In this document: positions 11,751 through 62,564 of the stretch, one piece after another
Numbering within the stretch: the stretch's first letter is position 1
How the letters are laid out: each line of letters opens with the position of its first letter
Sequence record: OY720021
From: Escherichia phage vB_Eco_Solly
Length of the DNA: 64,000 nt
Direction: 5' to 3' (one strand)
Made by a program: the position numbers and the translations under genes
Notes under the pieces: generated by a model
Seen by the model: only the letters and a program-made list of their open reading frames with translations
Told to the model about the DNA's origin: nothing
Database searches by the model: none

Positions 11751-12228
11751 AGAAGTTTCTATTCCTAAAATGGGTCTTAAACACTATAACATTTTAAAAG
11801 ATGTTAAAGGTCCTGATGAAAATTTAAAACTTCTTATTGATTCTATTTGTCCGAATTTATCACCGGCAGAAGTTGATTTCGTTTCTATTCATCTATTGGA
11901 ATTTAATGGAAAGATTAAATCTCGTAAAGAAATAGATGGTTATACTTATGACATTAATGATGTTTATGTATGCCAAAGATTGGAATTTCAATACCAAGGA
12001 AATACATTTTATTTTAGACCTCCTGGAAAATTTGAACAATTTTTAACTGTAAGCGATATGTTATCCAAATGCTTGCTTAAGGTCAATGATGAAGTTAAAG
12101 AAATTAATTTTCTTGAGATGCCAGCATTCGTTTTAAAATGGGCAAATGATATTTTTACAACTTTAGCAATTCCTGGCCCTAATGGTCCAATAACCGGAAT
12201 TGGCAATATTATTGGATTATTTGAATGA
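11695..12228 (+). CDS. 28: Baseplate hub distal protein gp28
   Basis: 177 aa; overlaps the 3' end of gene 27 out of frame. Confidence 0.7.
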
Positions 12229-25345: not shown

Positions 25346-25455
25346 TTTATTCTCCTTTGTTTGTGTAAGATAATACTATCACAAAGGAACTATACTGTAA
25401 ACAACTTTATGCAATCTTTGGAAAATAAAAAAGGACTCCCGAAGGAGTCCTCAAC

Positions 25456-25632
25456 TTATGCTTTCTGCTTACCAAAACGAGAAGCATCATCTCGAAGAAC
25501 CGCACGTGCTCGACGCATGATCTTCTCAACAGTTTGATTGATACGAGAGTTCGACACACGCTTGTAGCCAGCGCGTTTAGAATCACCAACTTTCTTTTCA
25601 ACTGCTTTCTTTGCTTTAACTTGTTTTGCCAT
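25456..25632 (-). CDS. Small highly basic Lys/Arg-rich protein (58 aa), possible nucleic-acid binder
   Basis: MAKQVKAKKAVEKK...; start taken at ATG 25632 rather than the track start at 25674. Confidence 0.45.
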   Translation of the reverse strand: MAKQVKAKKAVEKKVGDSKRAGYKRVSNSRINQTVEKIMRRARAVLRDDASRFGKQKA

Positions 25633-25921
25633 TATAAATTCTCTTTTAAATGAAAATGCAGGACTTATTGACATTGCCTGCGCAAGCCCTCAAGGGGAAC
25701 ATAGGTTTTTGGATATTTAACGACCAGGATAACCATAAACCCGTCATCATACCACCAAGACTTACACAGATAACACTTTTCTGACGCATGATAGTAACAT
25801 TCAAGAGGTACACCGTAAAACTGTCGGGGTCTTAAAACTATAATGATTCGCAAATCATTAATCAGACAGTTCGACGGCTCCTCGTTTTAACTTCACACTA
25901 AGGCAGTGACTCTCCAATAAA

Positions 25922-26170
25922 TTATTTCAGTGTTACCACAAAGTGACGAACTGCTTTTCGTGCAGCAGAAGCCAGAGGCTTAGCATACTTAAGTTCATCT
26001 TTTTCCTGAAGCTCAGCAGCTAATGCAGTTTGAGCAGGATTCAGATGTTTGAAATAACGCAGGATTTCAAGAGCTTCGGCTTCAACATCAATAGATGCGC
26101 CATAGTTTTCGTGACCATTATTCCATGCGTTTCGTTGCAGTTCAAGAGCGTGTTGTAATTGTTTAATCAT
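25922..26170 (-). CDS. rIII: rIII-like lysis-inhibition accessory protein
   Basis: 82 aa immediately downstream of gene 31, the T4 rIII size and position; late promoter at 26310..26317. Confidence 0.6.
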   Translation of the reverse strand: MIKQLQHALELQRNAWNNGHENYGASIDVEAEALEILRYFKHLNPAQTALAAELQEKDELKYAKPLASAARKAVRHFVVTLK

Positions 26171-26309
26171 TTAAAAATTCTCGTTAGAGATTAAAACTCG
26201 GTAGTCACGTTCTTCTGAATTTCATCTTCTTTCGACAGATCTCTCAGTTGTAGACTACCACATAGAATTGTTCGGTTAACTTATTATTCCGACACCCAAT
26301 TCATATTAT

Positions 26310-26317
26310 TATTTATA
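26310..26317 (-). promoter_or_regulatory. Late promoter TATAAATA upstream of rIII
   Basis: Plus-strand TATTTATA between gene 31 stop and rIII start. Confidence 0.5.
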
Positions 26318-37219: not shown

Positions 37220-37436
37220 ATTGTTTTTCCGTTAATACAGTAATATCATAGTAACAATCGGAAGAAGTTTTAACTGTGGAAATTTTATTATCAAAATACT
37301 CACGAGTCATTTTATGAGTATAGTATTTTTTACCATAAATGGTAATAGGCTGTTCTGGTCCTGGAACTTCTAACTCGCTTGGGTTAGGAAGTGTAAAAAG
37401 AACAACGCCAGAAGTATCTTTAAATCGTAAAATCAT
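37173..37436 (-). CDS. Hypothetical protein (nrdA.2-like)
   Basis: 87 aa; stop overlaps td start. Confidence 0.5.
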
Positions 37437-55789: not shown

Positions 55790-55872
55790 AGACCTTCCCC
55801 TTATGTTTCTGTTTGCGATTAGATTCTTTAAACGCTTTCTTCTTATCCTTATGAACAGAAGCTTTATTAAAA

Positions 55873-56091
55873 TTATGTTTTGCGACTAAATTGTTCATAG
55901 TGCTGAATTACCTCTCTTAAACATTTGCATGTGAATGAAAACTTTTTAGCTACACCACATTCAAATATATGTTCTCTTAAATCACGTGTATCGGTATATC
56001 CCATCTCAACGATAAAATGCCGTATTAGATTTTTATCTTTATCATTGAGAGAATTAAAATAATCGGATTTTGAATTAATTTCCCTGGCCAA
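55873..56091 (-). CDS. Hypothetical protein
   Basis: 72 aa ORF. Confidence 0.45.
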   Translation of the reverse strand: MAREINSKSDYFNSLNDKDKNLIRHFIVEMGYTDTRDLREHIFECGVAKKFSFTCKCLREVIQHYEQFSRKT

Positions 56092-60807: not shown

Positions 60808-61026
60808 TTATTTTACACCATTCCAAATTGTTTCAACTACAGATTTTAAGCCATTTTGATGAATGTCCATTCCGACTACCGCCATCAAATAGATTCCAAC
60901 TACAACTGAACCTAAGGCAAAAATCAGCATGAAAATGAATAAAGCCGGAAAAATATTATCGAAAAACCATTCAATAAATGTAAAAGCACTACGCTTACGT
61001 TTCATATTTTCCTCACATAAATCCAA
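60808..61026 (-). CDS. Small membrane protein
   Basis: 72 aa ORF with hydrophobic core FPALFIFMLIFALGSVVVGIYLMAVVG. Confidence 0.4.
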   Translation of the reverse strand: MDLCEENMKRKRSAFTFIEWFFDNIFPALFIFMLIFALGSVVVGIYLMAVVGMDIHQNGLKSVVETIWNGVK

Positions 61027-61126
61027 AATAAGCGTTTAACATATCAATCATTAAAACGATTGGGAATATACTCAAAACTATTAGTATTATAACTACATTC
61101 CATATAGCTTTAACAATCTTTTTCAT
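61013..61126 (-). CDS. Small membrane protein (37 aa from internal ATG)
   Basis: MKKIVKAIWNVVIILIVLSIFPIVLM...; strong SD GGAGGAA; early promoter 61155..61184. Confidence 0.4.
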   Translation of the reverse strand: MKKIVKAIWNVVIILIVLSIFPIVLMIDMLNAYFGFM

Positions 61127-61154
61127 TTTCTGTTCCTCCGTAGTTGATAGGGTA

Positions 61155-61184
61155 ATAGTACCACGGAAGAACAGTCCTGTAAAC
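61155..61184 (-). promoter_or_regulatory. Early promoter
   Basis: Minus strand GTTTAC, 18-nt spacer, TACTAT, then GGAGGAA SD. Confidence 0.55.
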
Positions 61185-61368
61185 AACTTTTTAAAAATAT
61201 TCGTAATAAATGTGAATACCAACTACTACCGCTGAAACCTGTGCAACCCACCACGCACAAGCAATAAGTACAGAATTCAAAATTTTCATAATAACCTCAT
61301 CACAAAAGTAAATGTTAAACAAATTACTGGAATACTAATTAACCAAACAAAACACCACCATAATGAAC

Positions 61369-62264: not shown

Positions 62265-62526
62265 TTAAACTTTCCTTTTTACCGCTGAGATAAGCGTTAT
62301 ACACTTTAAGAGTACCGTAGTAAATTCGGTCATTTTCATCTAAAGACACACGGTCAAGTTCATCAAGTTCCTTTTTATCCATGACTATAACATCATTGCA
62401 ATAAAGAAACCCAAGTTTTTCGTGACCAAACTCAAATTTATTACAGTACACAATATTAGCGTGATGATTTCCGTGCAGTTTAATCTCTTTTATGTCGGAA
62501 TCACCGATATTCATACAATAAATCAT
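62197..62526 (-). CDS. Hypothetical protein (denB.1-like)
   Basis: 109 aa ORF overlapping denB 5' end. Confidence 0.45.
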   Translation of the reverse strand: MIYCMNIGDSDIKEIKLHGNHHANIVYCNKFEFGHEKLGFLYCNDVIVMDKKELDELDRVSLDENDRIYYGTLKVYNAYLSGKKESLNAENESGATETISDSDIYPIEQ

Positions 62527-62564
62527 AATTTTTCCTTAAAACAAAAGGGCCGAAGCCCTTTATT

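What the first reader, a model, noticed from the sequence alone, without database searches (positions are those of the whole stretch)
25456..25921. Small very basic protein preceded by a long GC-enriched leader
The 58-aa Lys/Arg-rich ORF lies downstream of ~250 bp that is more GC-rich than surrounding DNA and has no convincing ORF. The region holds an early-promoter-like element near 25770..25800 and a long inverted repeat (GCAGG ... CCTGC) overlapping the longer upstream start. The leader could be a regulatory RNA structure or a small RNA.
Basis: seen in the sequence. Interest (0 to 1): 0.4.

Follow-up and report, generated by a model that had tools for sequence, protein, structure and literature searches.

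The report
Conserved RNA folds before gene 30.9
The 289-base gap between the lysis-inhibition gene rIII and the tiny basic gene 30.9 of this T4-like phage is a string of evolutionarily conserved RNA folds (a long hairpin, a pseudoknot, smaller hairpins) that no RNA database describes and whose job is still unknown.

Summary
The window is a T4-type (Tequatrovirus) phage. The ORF at 25456-25632 (minus strand) is T4 gene 30.9: 58 aa, 19 Lys/Arg, function unknown. The "leader" is the 289-nt rIII-30.9 gap, which the T4 reference record leaves unannotated.

The gap is non-coding. Relatives differ by 1-nt indels and no upstream start is conserved. Its aligned positions are 84-94% identical where rIII third codon positions are only 48-65% identical.

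It is built from discrete base-paired modules:
- Long hairpin B: 7 pairs with compensatory changes against 2.0±1.0 in shuffles.
- H-type pseudoknot D (25700-25745): 83.7% of cells paired against 66.8% in shuffles, 8 of 12 pairs with double changes. It is present once in 46 of 50 related loci.
- Smaller hairpins A, X and F, and a weak Shine-Dalgarno-occluding hairpin G.

Module order and content differ between phage genera. At the site where this window has X, T4 has nothing and many relatives have a 144-nt seven-helix RNA. D also occurs beside tRNA genes in Aeromonas and other T4-like phages.

No Rfam family matches. The promoter-like element is not conserved, and the GC enrichment is modest.

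Verdict: real, conserved, undescribed structured RNA. The function is inferred only.

The parts
25456..25632 (-). Gene 30.9: 58-aa very basic protein. The model gives a disordered N-terminal tail and one helix at residues 29-53.
   Evidence: T4 annotation; phrog_1427; 66 clusters, with T4-like phage names wherever a name is given; AF2, pLDDT 67.5.
25633..25921 (-). rIII-30.9 intergenic region, 289 nt, non-coding, made of modules A-B-X-D-E-F-G.
   Evidence: Nothing is annotated here in T4 AF158101.
25885..25915 (-). Module A: small hairpin UCAC-UGCCUUAGU-GUGA (stem and loop at 25893-25909) with conserved flanks.
   Evidence: The stem is UCAC/GUGA here, UCGC/GCGG, UUGC/GCAG or CGC/GCG in relatives, so 2 of 4 pairs covary. 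Read directly from the sequences; not tested statistically.
25805..25883 (-). Module B: long imperfect hairpin (GAGG/CCUC, then a 13-bp helix, then inner hairpin AAUGAUU-UGCG-AAUCAUU).
   Evidence: alifold; 98.7% of cells paired, 7 pairs with double changes against 2.0±1.0 in shuffles (0/500), two invariant G·U pairs; z = -3.55.
25791..25819 (-). Sigma-70-like TTTACG-N17-TGtTACTAT. It is not conserved.
   Evidence: below the scan threshold; absent in T4, spacer 23 in L142-type relatives.
25751..25795 (-). Module X: hairpin ACUAUCAUG...CUUGGUGGU with inner stem CAGA/UCUG. It occupies the site that is empty in T4 and holds the 144-nt module C in ECO07P5.
   Evidence: The inner stem becomes CAGC/GCUG in L147 and L159. 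The outer stem has three U·G pairs. Support is moderate.
25700..25745 (-). Module D: H-type pseudoknot.
- H1: 25740-25745 with 25722-25728.
- H2: 25731-25737 with 25700-25707.
- Conserved A-rich loop 3: 25708-25721.
   Evidence: 83.7% of cells paired against 66.8±1.7 in shuffles (0/500), 48.6% or less when slid, 8 of 12 pairs with double changes. (H2 register). CM hit at 25697-25754, 65.5 bits, single copy; 46 of 50 loci.
25683..25700 (-). Module E: conserved element GUUCCCCUUGAGGGCUUG, a short CCC/GGG hairpin.
   Evidence: The sequence is highly conserved across genera. Covariation is limited (UCC/GGA, CCUC/GAGG).
25658..25681 (-). Its loop holds the non-conserved upstream AUG.
   Evidence: The stem is ACUGG/CCAGU in L156 and L172 with the same loop.
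25638..25657 (-). Module G: weak hairpin AUUUUC-auuuaaaa-GAGAAU that pairs the Shine-Dalgarno region of 30.9.
   Evidence: Other clades have UCUCC/GGAAGA or CCUC/GAGG at the same place.
25431..25452 (-). Intrinsic terminator ending the cd-31-rIII-30.9 transcription unit. An early promoter for 30.8 follows at 25373-25401.
   Evidence: it is annotated as a terminator in G9062.
25922..26170 (-). Gene rIII, the lysis-inhibition accessory protein and upstream neighbour on the same transcript.
26198..26261 (-). Module H, in the gp31-rIII gap: a hairpin with conserved internal loops UACAAC and GAACGUG. The same module sits directly upstream of 30.9 in Klebsiella- and Citrobacter-type relatives.
   Evidence: 9 of 16 pairs compensatory; 86.9 bits, single copy.

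Best explanation
SHOWN.
- The rIII-30.9 gap is a non-coding stretch of the cd-31-rIII-30.9 transcription unit.
- It consists of independent, stem-closed RNA modules kept by selection on base pairing.
- In this window these are hairpin A, long hairpin B, hairpin X, H-type pseudoknot D, element E, hairpin F and the SD-pairing hairpin G.
- Modules are gained, lost and re-ordered between T4-like genera.
- D is the constant one, and it is also found beside tRNA genes in other T4-like phages.

INFERRED (most likely mechanism).
- The distal modules, D above all, are autonomous functional RNA domains.
- They act by being bound, by a host or phage RNA-binding protein or less likely by a small ligand. 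That would make them a stable RNA/RNP or decoy carried on, or processed out of, the mRNA.
- This reading rests on the covarying stems combined with near-invariant loops (L1 UU, L2 AUC, L3 GUUAAAUAUCCAAAA).
- Only the proximal F and G hairpins act in cis. They hold the weak SD of 30.9 in a hairpin and so limit translation of the basic protein.

My confidence that this is selected RNA structure on the gene strand is about 0.9. My confidence in the autonomous-domain mechanism is about 0.45, and that is the figure given as the confidence of this explanation.
For: Identity and context.

Non-coding.

Selective constraint: aligned gap positions are 84-94% identical where rIII third codon positions are 48-65% identical.

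Covariation:
- D: 83.7% against 66.8±1.7 paired, covariation score 0.434 against 0.165, 0/500 shuffles, slid registers 48.6% or less.
- B: 7 against 2.0±1.0 double-change pairs, 0/500.
- H. Module C in relatives: 20 of 43 pairs.

Strand: invariant G·U pairs in B and many in C would be A·C mismatches on the other strand. Every D copy lies on the gene strand.

Autonomy of D:
- One copy per locus in 46 of 50 loci, at changing positions relative to A, C and E.
- Complete copies lie inside the tRNA cluster of Aeromonas phage 44RR2.8t, 6 nt after a tRNA-Met in L300, and in an ORF-free stretch in L299.
- Ten chance matches to the same 18-nt pattern lack the H1 partner strand.

Proximal control: the SD and anti-SD change together between clades. 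They are AUUUUC/GAGAAU, UCUCC/GGAAGA and CCUC/GAGG. The same hairpin-plus-SD-hairpin layout precedes rIII.

Not a known family.
Against: - No transcript, processing or binding data could be consulted, so 'stable RNA' and 'bound by a protein' are inferences.
- Single-sequence folding gives no signal for D (z = -0.66) or for 25633-25800 (z = +0.12). Only B stands out.
- In this window and in T4, helix H2 of D is the weakest of the family: 4 contiguous pairs, or 7 only if one U is bulged.
- T4 itself lacks X and C, so at least those modules are dispensable in the laboratory.
- High conservation could partly reflect recent recombination between phages rather than constraint.
- The G hairpin is weak and A-U rich in the T4 type, and covaries only between three sequence classes.
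- D's own G·U against A·C count (7 against 4) does not fix the strand by itself.
Confidence: 0.45

Rival explanations
1. The whole gap is a cis-acting translational operator for 30.9. The basic protein gp30.9, or another repressor such as RegA or gp32, binds pseudoknot D and hairpin F and controls its own translation, as gp32 does at its leader pseudoknot and ribosomal protein S15 at the rpsO pseudoknot.
For: - The gap lies immediately upstream of a small, highly basic, probably RNA-binding protein.
- The SD is paired in a hairpin that changes together with its partner between clades.
- Two relatives with a 30.9 homologue that lacks the Lys-rich N-terminal tail also lack the whole structured gap (L177 and L179).
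- The T4 gene 32 precedent is described in PMC3014915.
Against: - D is 60 to more than 250 nt from the 30.9 start, and other modules are inserted between them in different orders.
- D is kept where 30.9 is truncated or fused (L173).
- D occurs next to tRNA genes with no 30.9 nearby.
- Hairpin type F does not track gp30.9 similarity. L181 has a 95% identical protein but a different F and G.
Confidence: 0.25
2. The structures are passive mRNA architecture. They could be stable stem-loops that protect the rIII message from 3' exonucleases, offer RNase III or RNase E processing sites, or keep a long untranslated stretch from loading Rho.
For: - B is a stable helix of about 20 bp (z = -3.55), compatible with an RNase III substrate.
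- The gap is an untranslated stretch inside a polycistronic unit that ends at the terminator after 30.9.
- Relatives without the gap have a terminator hairpin directly after rIII (L174 and L178).
Against: Passive stability elements do not need near-invariant loop sequences or a pseudoknot kept across at least six genera. The occurrence of D in tRNA clusters is also not explained.
Confidence: 0.15
3. A separately transcribed small RNA starts from the promoter-like element at 25791-25819 and covers X-D-E-F.
For: TTTACG-N17-TACTAT with an extended -10 TG is present in this window.
Against: - It is below the consensus threshold of the scan.
- The -10 is deleted in T4 and the spacer is 23 nt in L142-type phages.
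- There is no terminator before the one after 30.9.
Confidence: 0.05
4. The gap is a DNA-level or decaying element: a dead gene, a remnant of a mobile element, or a recombination cassette with no RNA function.
For: - Presence/absence polymorphism occurs at exact sites (empty, X or C).
- Modules are shuffled between phages.
- One hairpin is exactly inverted between two phages (L085 and L161).
- Some records annotate ORFs here.
Against: - Compensatory double changes keep the pairing.
- G·U pairs work on one strand only.
- The gap is conserved above synonymous sites.
- No conserved reading frame exists.
- The two module motifs scanned (one from C, one from D) gave no genuine copy in bacterial genomes.
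Confidence: 0.05

Closest known systems
T4 gene 32 mRNA leader pseudoknot (autogenous translational operator)
   Same: An H-type pseudoknot in an untranslated leader of a T4-type phage mRNA, tens of nucleotides upstream of the start codon and followed by A/U-rich sequence (PMC3014915).
   Different: Different gene and a different sequence. D is not at a fixed distance from any start codon, its order relative to other modules changes, and it also occurs by tRNA genes. No binding protein is known for it.
T4 stable RNAs rnaC and rnaD (species 1 and 2) in the tRNA cluster
   Same: Small structured phage RNAs of unknown function that are co-transcribed and processed with neighbouring genes. D-type pseudoknots of Aeromonas and other T4-like phages sit in the same kind of place.
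   Different: There is no D copy in T4's tRNA region. rnaC and rnaD end in tRNA-like 3' parts, which D lacks. No discrete transcript has been shown for the rIII-30.9 gap.
H-type pseudoknot riboswitch aptamers (preQ1-I, SAM-II and similar)
   Same: Compact pseudoknot of about 46 nt with a short loop 1, an A-rich loop 3, covarying stems and near-invariant loop nucleotides.
   Different: No Rfam model matches even at E ≤ 10. There is no adjacent expression platform, and the distance to the SD is variable. No associated metabolic gene points to a ligand.
Ribosomal-protein leaders such as the rpsO (S15) pseudoknot
   Same: Structured leader upstream of a very small, very basic protein, with the SD involved in pairing.
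   Different: Only a chance-level S15 hit appears in one relative (E = 0.72, 20.5 bits against a gathering score of 39.5). The pseudoknot here does not include the SD or start codon.
SD-sequestering hairpins of T4 mRNAs (genes e, soc, 49, I-TevI; from my own knowledge of the T4 literature)
   Same: A local hairpin pairs the Shine-Dalgarno sequence. This matches G before 30.9 and the UCUC/GAGA hairpin before rIII.
   Different: In the classic cases a late promoter lies inside the hairpin, so late transcripts escape it. No such promoter arrangement is seen here.
PeSL cassettes (promoter-early stem-loop) of T4-type genomes (Arbiol et al. 2010; from my own knowledge)
   Same: Short regulatory modules that are shuffled between T4-type genomes. 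The terminator plus early promoter at 25373-25452 fits that description.
   Different: The gap modules carry no promoter or terminator. They are defined by RNA pairing and conserved loops.

Membership tests
Any Rfam 15 family | Covariance-model match at or near the gathering score. | tested here: not met
   The only hit inside the gap at E ≤ 10 is a 10-bit mcrA match on the opposite strand. There are none in the relatives' gaps. The whole window has no gathering-level hit.
preQ1 / SAM-II type pseudoknot riboswitch | H-type pseudoknot topology with an A-rich 3' loop. | tested here: met
   H1 and H2 are both supported by covariation, and loop 3 is GUUAAAUAUCCAAAA.
preQ1 / SAM-II type pseudoknot riboswitch | Match to the family model, and an expression platform directly coupled to the aptamer. 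| tested here: not met
   No model match. D is separated from the SD by E, F and, in relatives, A and C, in varying order.
preQ1 / SAM-II type pseudoknot riboswitch | Specific ligand binding. | not testable with these tools
   This needs in-line probing or ITC.
Autogenous translational operator (gp32 / S15 type) | The encoded protein binds its own leader and represses translation. | not testable with these tools
   Only indirect evidence is available. The protein is basic with one helix. The position of D relative to 30.9 is not fixed.
tRNA or tRNA-like gene | Cloverleaf detected by ARAGORN or the Rfam tRNA model. | tested here: not met
   No tRNA in the window or in L004.
Sigma-70 / T4 early promoter | -35 and -10 hexamers with a 16-18 nt spacer, conserved in relatives. 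| tested here: not met
   The hexamers match 8 of 12 positions, with an extended -10, in this window only. The -10 is deleted in T4 and the spacer is 23 nt in L142-type phages.
Intrinsic terminator | GC-rich hairpin followed by a U run. | tested here: not met
   None is found inside 25633-25921. The only strong one is at 25431-25452, after 30.9.
Protein-coding gene in the gap | Reading frame conserved among relatives. | tested here: not met
   The gap has 1-nt indels among relatives 90% or more identical. Extended N-termini are unrelated to one another. No Pfam or PDB relatives were found for 30.9 itself.
RegB/S1 cleavage site | Single-stranded GGAGRAYARAA (PMC1702504). | tested here: not met
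   The two GGAG motifs read GGAGAGUCACU and GGAGCCGUCGA. The second is partly paired in B.

The most novel reading that the evidence does not exclude
Pseudoknot D, together with modules A, C, E and H, would be a previously unrecognised family of autonomous phage RNA domains. They would be 'beads on a string' aptamers that T4-like phages move between the rIII-30.9 locus and their tRNA clusters. They would bind, and sequester or recruit, a host translation, tRNA-processing or defence factor, or sense a small ligand. That would make them the first new class of functional non-coding RNA in T4-type phages since the tRNA-cluster stable RNAs.
Probability: 0.3. Interest if true: 0.8.

Novelty: new member of a known kind. 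Interest (0 to 1): 0.55.

Why it matters
T4 is the reference phage of molecular biology, yet its record leaves this 244-289-nt gap blank. I found no Rfam family or paper that covers it.

The evidence here shows that the gap carries covariation-supported RNA folds shared by hundreds of sequenced phages of E. coli, Shigella, Klebsiella, Enterobacter, Citrobacter, Serratia and Yersinia. One of these folds is a pseudoknot that is also found in tRNA clusters of Aeromonas phages.

This gives concrete, testable RNA targets next to a lysis-timing gene and an uncharacterised basic protein. If the modules bind host factors, they could reveal a new layer of phage takeover or anti-defence. If they only tune 30.9 translation, they add a second pseudoknot-containing leader to T4 biology.

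The modular gain, loss and re-ordering also offers a natural experiment on how RNA domains are shuffled.

Tried and rejected
- **Rfam.** Searched at lax thresholds on the gap, on the relatives' gaps and on the whole window. Nothing relevant.
- **tRNA or tRNA-like reading of the ECO07P5 insertion.** ARAGORN was negative.
Uninformative except for B.
- **gp30.9 homology.** No Pfam family above threshold, no PDB relative, PHROG of unknown function. The model is a single helix plus a disordered tail, so I ran no fold search.
- **RegB sites.** The GGAG motifs do not fit GGAGRAYARAA.
- **S1-binding pseudoknot idea.** It was prompted by the RIII-S1 interaction in PMC9409239. D's loops lack the conserved GGA/ACA of the S1 SELEX pseudoknots mentioned in PMC1702504. 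It stays a speculation.
- **Pairing of the recurrent UAAG(U/A)C motif with E's GG(G/A)CUUG.** Not supported; the changes do not compensate (read directly).
- **Long-range helix GAAUGU/GCAUUU enclosing X-D-E-F.** No compensatory change, so undecided.
- **Copies elsewhere.** D and H are single-copy in the window. Bacterial genomes hold no C-module motif, and only chance matches to D's loop.
- **T4's own tRNA region.** No D copy.
- **Small basic ORF near D in L299.** It is DUF7230 and unrelated to gp30.9.
- **Literature.** Seven full-text searches found nothing on gene 30.9 or on this gap. Miller et al. 2003 is not held.

Full report
**What the region is**

The window is a T4-type phage. The genes around the finding, all on the minus strand, run in this order:
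- dCMP deaminase (cd), 31.2, 31.1 and the co-chaperonin gene 31
- rIII at 25922-26170
- a 289-nt gap at 25633-25921
- gene 30.9 at 25456-25632
- a strong intrinsic terminator at 25431-25452
- the early promoter of 30.8

A 601-nt query across the gap matches 760 phage records, mostly of Escherichia and Shigella phages. The T4 reference record AF158101 annotates nothing between rIII and 30.9.

**Checking the observation**

The 58-aa ORF is real. It is gene 30.9, with 11 Lys, 8 Arg and a net charge of about +14.
- Its family is phrog_1427, of unknown function.
- It comprises 66 protein clusters, with T4-like phage names wherever a name is given.
- A model built on 33 homologues gives a disordered basic tail (residues 1-28) and one helix (29-53), at mean pLDDT 67.5.

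Longer annotated versions of 72, 97 and 102 aa have unrelated N-termini. The upstream in-frame ATG at 25674 is ACG in several relatives. The 58-aa start is therefore the real one.

The gap has no conserved frame. Relatives more than 90% identical differ by many 1-nt indels there, and by none in rIII or 30.9.

GC content is 39.1%, against 36.0±3.8% for all 289-nt windows. That is only the top 20%, although it is above most other non-coding gaps, which are 27-35%.

The 'early-promoter-like element' is TTTACG-N17-TGtTACTAT at 25819-25791. It falls below the scan threshold. It is not conserved: T4 lacks the -10 and L142-type phages have a 23-nt spacer.

The GCAGG/CCTGC repeat is a 5-bp hairpin (F), not a long one.

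Folding 25633-25800 alone gives z = +0.12, and the whole gap gives z = -1.13. Thermodynamics by itself says nothing here.

**Anatomy from comparison**

I collected the rIII-to-30.9 region from 48 distinct relatives, whose rIII proteins are 63-100% identical to the window's, plus annotated records. Where present, the gap is 120-422 nt long and built from recognisable modules.

In this window the order is A-B-X-D-E-F-G, at these coordinates:

| Module | Coordinates |
|---|---|
| A | 25885-25915 |
| B | 25805-25883 |
| X | 25751-25795 |
| D | 25700-25745 |
| E | 25683-25700 |
| F | 25658-25681 |
| G | 25638-25657 |

The order differs in other phages:

| Phage | Order |
|---|---|
| ECO07P5 | A-B-C-D-E-F-G |
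| Klebsiella phage KPV15 type | hairpin-D-A-C-E-F'-G' |
| L014 | E-C-D-...-F'' |
| L016 | D-A-C-E-F |
| L159 and L161 | E-D-F-G |

At one exact site, T4 has nothing, this window has the 45-nt hairpin X, and ECO07P5 has a 155-nt insertion containing the 144-nt module C. Two relatives have 30.9 directly after rIII with no gap, and two have only a terminator after rIII.

**Evidence that the modules are base-paired RNA**

*Pseudoknot D.* This is the constant module. The covariance model finds exactly one copy, always on the gene strand, in 46 of 50 loci, and one in the window (65.5 bits, with the next hit at 16 bits).

Its layout is H1 5' strand, UU, H2 5' strand, AU(C), H1 3' strand, a conserved 14-15-nt A-rich loop (GUUAAAUAUCCAAAA), then H2 3' strand. 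That is a classical H-type topology.

On 30 distinct sequences:
- 83.7% of cells are paired, against 66.8±1.7% in shuffles (0/500) and 48.6% or less when the partner is slid.
- The covariation score is 0.434 against 0.165.
- 8 of 12 pairs show changes on both sides. Examples are GAC/GUC, GGC/GCC, GUU/AAC and GUG/CAC in H1, and GGUU/AACC, GUAGU/ACUAC, GUGAG/CUCAC and GAUGG/CCAUC in H2.

With the 3' strand anchored on the end of the A run, the non-T4-type sequences pair in 105 of 116 H2 cells, against 42% or less when slid.

One caveat applies to the window itself. In this window and in T4, H2 is the weakest version: GGUU/AACC, extended to 7 pairs only if one U is bulged.

*Hairpin B.* On 12 closely related sequences, including VR7:
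- 98.7% of cells are paired.
- 7 pairs show double changes, against 2.0±1.0 in shuffles (0/500).
- Two G·U pairs are invariant.
- It is the only module with a clear single-sequence signal, z = -3.55.

*Smaller elements.*
- F keeps its loop CAAUGYCAAUAAG while its stem changes from GCAGG/CCUGC to ACUGG/CCAGU.
- A changes UCAC/GUGA to UCGC/GCGG or UUGC/GCAG.
- X changes its inner stem CAGA/UCUG to CAGC/GCUG.
- G pairs the SD. The SD and its partner differ together between clades: AUUUUC/GAGAAU, UCUCC/GGAAGA and CCUC/GAGG. The hairpin is weak in the T4 type.

*Strand and constraint.*
- The G·U pairs in B, and many in C, would be A·C mismatches on the other strand. The functional strand is therefore the gene strand.
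- Aligned gap positions are 84-94% identical in relatives whose rIII third codon positions are 48-65% identical. That fits selection, although recombination could contribute.

**Wider context**

*Module C.* This is a 144-nt domain of seven helices closed by its own P1.
- It is present in 403 phage records, almost all unannotated.
- It is very well supported: 96.6% of cells paired, 20 of 43 pairs with double changes, 0/500 shuffles.
- Its conserved 19-nt motif is absent from bacterial genomes, and it has no Rfam match.
- The window and T4 have lost it.

*The gap upstream of rIII.* It is built the same way:
- a late-promoter TATAAATA
- a hairpin
- module H at 26198-26261 (9 of 16 pairs compensatory; single copy)
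- an SD-pairing hairpin, UCUC/GAGA here and CCUC/GAGG in most relatives

Module H is the very element that serves as the 'F' hairpin in front of 30.9 in Klebsiella-, Enterobacter- and Citrobacter-type phages.

*D outside this locus.* A degenerate pattern scan found three complete D copies elsewhere:
- inside the 16-tRNA cluster of Aeromonas phage 44RR2.8t/31, enclosed by a 12-bp helix
- 6 nt after a tRNA-Met in another contig
- in an 850-nt ORF-free stretch after a gp52-like gene

All three keep H1 with its bulge, the UU linker and H2. Ten other matches to an 18-nt core pattern lack the H1 partner strand and serve as chance controls. T4's own tRNA region, with the stable RNAs rnaC and rnaD, has no D copy.

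**How it most likely works**

Shown:
- The gap is selected, modular RNA structure on the mRNA strand.
- D is an autonomous unit, not tied to a fixed distance from 30.9 or even to this locus.
- The 30.9 SD lies in a small hairpin.

Inferred: covarying stems combined with near-invariant loops are the signature of an RNA recognised by a partner. The tRNA-cluster copies suggest a stable or processed RNA rather than a gene-specific leader.

My best reading, at about 0.45, has two parts:
- The distal modules are autonomous RNA domains. They would act as a protein-binding, or less likely ligand-binding, RNP or decoy.
- Only F and G act in cis, on 30.9 translation.

Rivals:
- Autogenous operator for gp30.9, about 0.25. 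The basic protein and the SD hairpin favour it. The variable geometry, L173 and the tRNA contexts count against it.
- Passive stability, processing or anti-Rho architecture, about 0.15.
- A separately promoted small RNA, about 0.05.
- Non-functional DNA, about 0.05.

**Comparison with what is known**

No Rfam 15 family matches at any threshold tried.

The closest analogues, and how they compare:
- T4 gene 32 leader pseudoknot (PMC3014915): same topology and kind of place, but a different sequence and behaviour.
- T4's tRNA-cluster stable RNAs: same genomic habit as the Aeromonas copy, but no homology.
- Pseudoknot riboswitch aptamers: same topology, but no model match and no coupled expression platform.
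- r-protein leaders.
- T4's SD-sequestering hairpins.

Seven full-text searches found no paper on gene 30.9 or on this gap. A 2023 survey of viral structured RNAs (PMC10690425) does not mention this locus in its text, and its tables are not held.

**Verdict**

The leader holds conserved RNA structure. The promoter is not conserved and the GC signal is weak.

I rate this a new member of a known kind: conserved structured RNA elements in a phage transcript. It has a real chance of being a new class of autonomous phage RNA domains.

Interest is 0.55. The structure is solid and widely conserved in the best-studied phage group, but the function is unknown and cannot be tested here.

Noticed in passing
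L004 806-949 (ECO07P5); L013 about 1250-1395; absent from the window (the site corresponds to window 25751-25795): Module C is a 144-nt, seven-helix RNA domain closed by its own stem. It is present once in 403 phage records (Klebsiella, Escherichia, Enterobacter, Shigella, Yersinia, Serratia and others), almost all unannotated. On the alignment, 96.6% of cells are paired and 20 of 43 pairs have compensatory changes. It has no Rfam match, and its conserved motif is not found in bacterial genomes. T4 and this window have lost it.
   Followed up: partly
window 26171-26317 (minus strand), especially 26198-26261: The gp31-rIII gap is also a structured leader. It holds a late-promoter TATAAATA just after the gene 31 stop, a hairpin, module H (conserved internal loops UACAAC and GAACGUG; 9 of 16 pairs compensatory) and an SD-pairing hairpin UCUC-UAAC-GAGA before rIII. 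Module H is the element found directly upstream of 30.9 in Klebsiella-, Enterobacter- and Citrobacter-type phages. The rIII and 30.9 ribosome-binding regions of this window are nearly identical: GAGAAUUUUUAAAUG and GAGAAUUUAUAAUG.
   Followed up: partly
L292 2107-2138 (-), L300 838-884 (+), L299 3191-3248 (+): Complete D-type pseudoknots occur outside the rIII-30.9 locus. One is between tRNA-Pro and tRNA-Thr in the 16-tRNA cluster of Aeromonas phage 44RR2.8t/31, inside a domain closed by a 12-bp helix. One is 6 nt after a tRNA-Met. One is in an 850-nt ORF-free stretch after a gp52-like gene. All are unannotated.
   Followed up: partly
window 25373-25452 (minus strand): A terminator hairpin (GAGGACUCCUUCGGGAGUCCUUUUUU) is followed at once by a T4 early-type promoter (GTTTACA...TGaTAGTAT) for gene 30.8. 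This terminator-plus-early-promoter cassette resembles the PeSL type described for T4-type genomes (the comparison is from my own knowledge).
   Followed up: no
window 11751-12224, 61006-61368, 62265-62564, 55790-56074, 37220-37432: These are other unusually long stretches (213-474 nt) without an ATG-started ORF of 45 aa or more, in a genome that is otherwise tightly packed. GC is 30-33%. I did not examine them for RNA structure. The window has no Rfam gathering-level hit at all.
   Followed up: no
L085 and L161, hairpin just upstream of the 30.9 SD: The two hairpins, GAGAGGUGUAAGACCUCUC and GAGAGGUCUUACACCUCUC, are exact reverse complements of each other. This is a loop inversion of a palindromic stem between two related phages.
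   Followed up: no
P0002 (UniRef 'Uncharacterized 11.1 kDa protein in Gp30-rIII intergenic region'): An old 97-aa T4 database entry, and the 72-102-aa gene calls in several phage records, extend 30.9 into the structured gap. The extensions are unrelated to one another and look like annotation artefacts. One record even labels the 30.9 homologue '1,4-alpha-glucan branching enzyme'.
   Followed up: yes
L299 3740-3934 (+): A 64-aa very basic ORF (Pfam DUF7230, E = 4e-8) lies about 500 nt downstream of the D-type pseudoknot in this T4-like contig. It shows no similarity to gp30.9.
   Followed up: yes
modules X, F and C, and the relatives' F hairpins (window 25759-25764 and 25662-25667): A short motif UAAG(U/A)C recurs just 5' of the closing 3' strand of many of these hairpins, and in T4 rnaD (GGUAAGUCG). 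Its pairing with element E is not supported. Whether it is more than chance was not tested.
   Followed up: no
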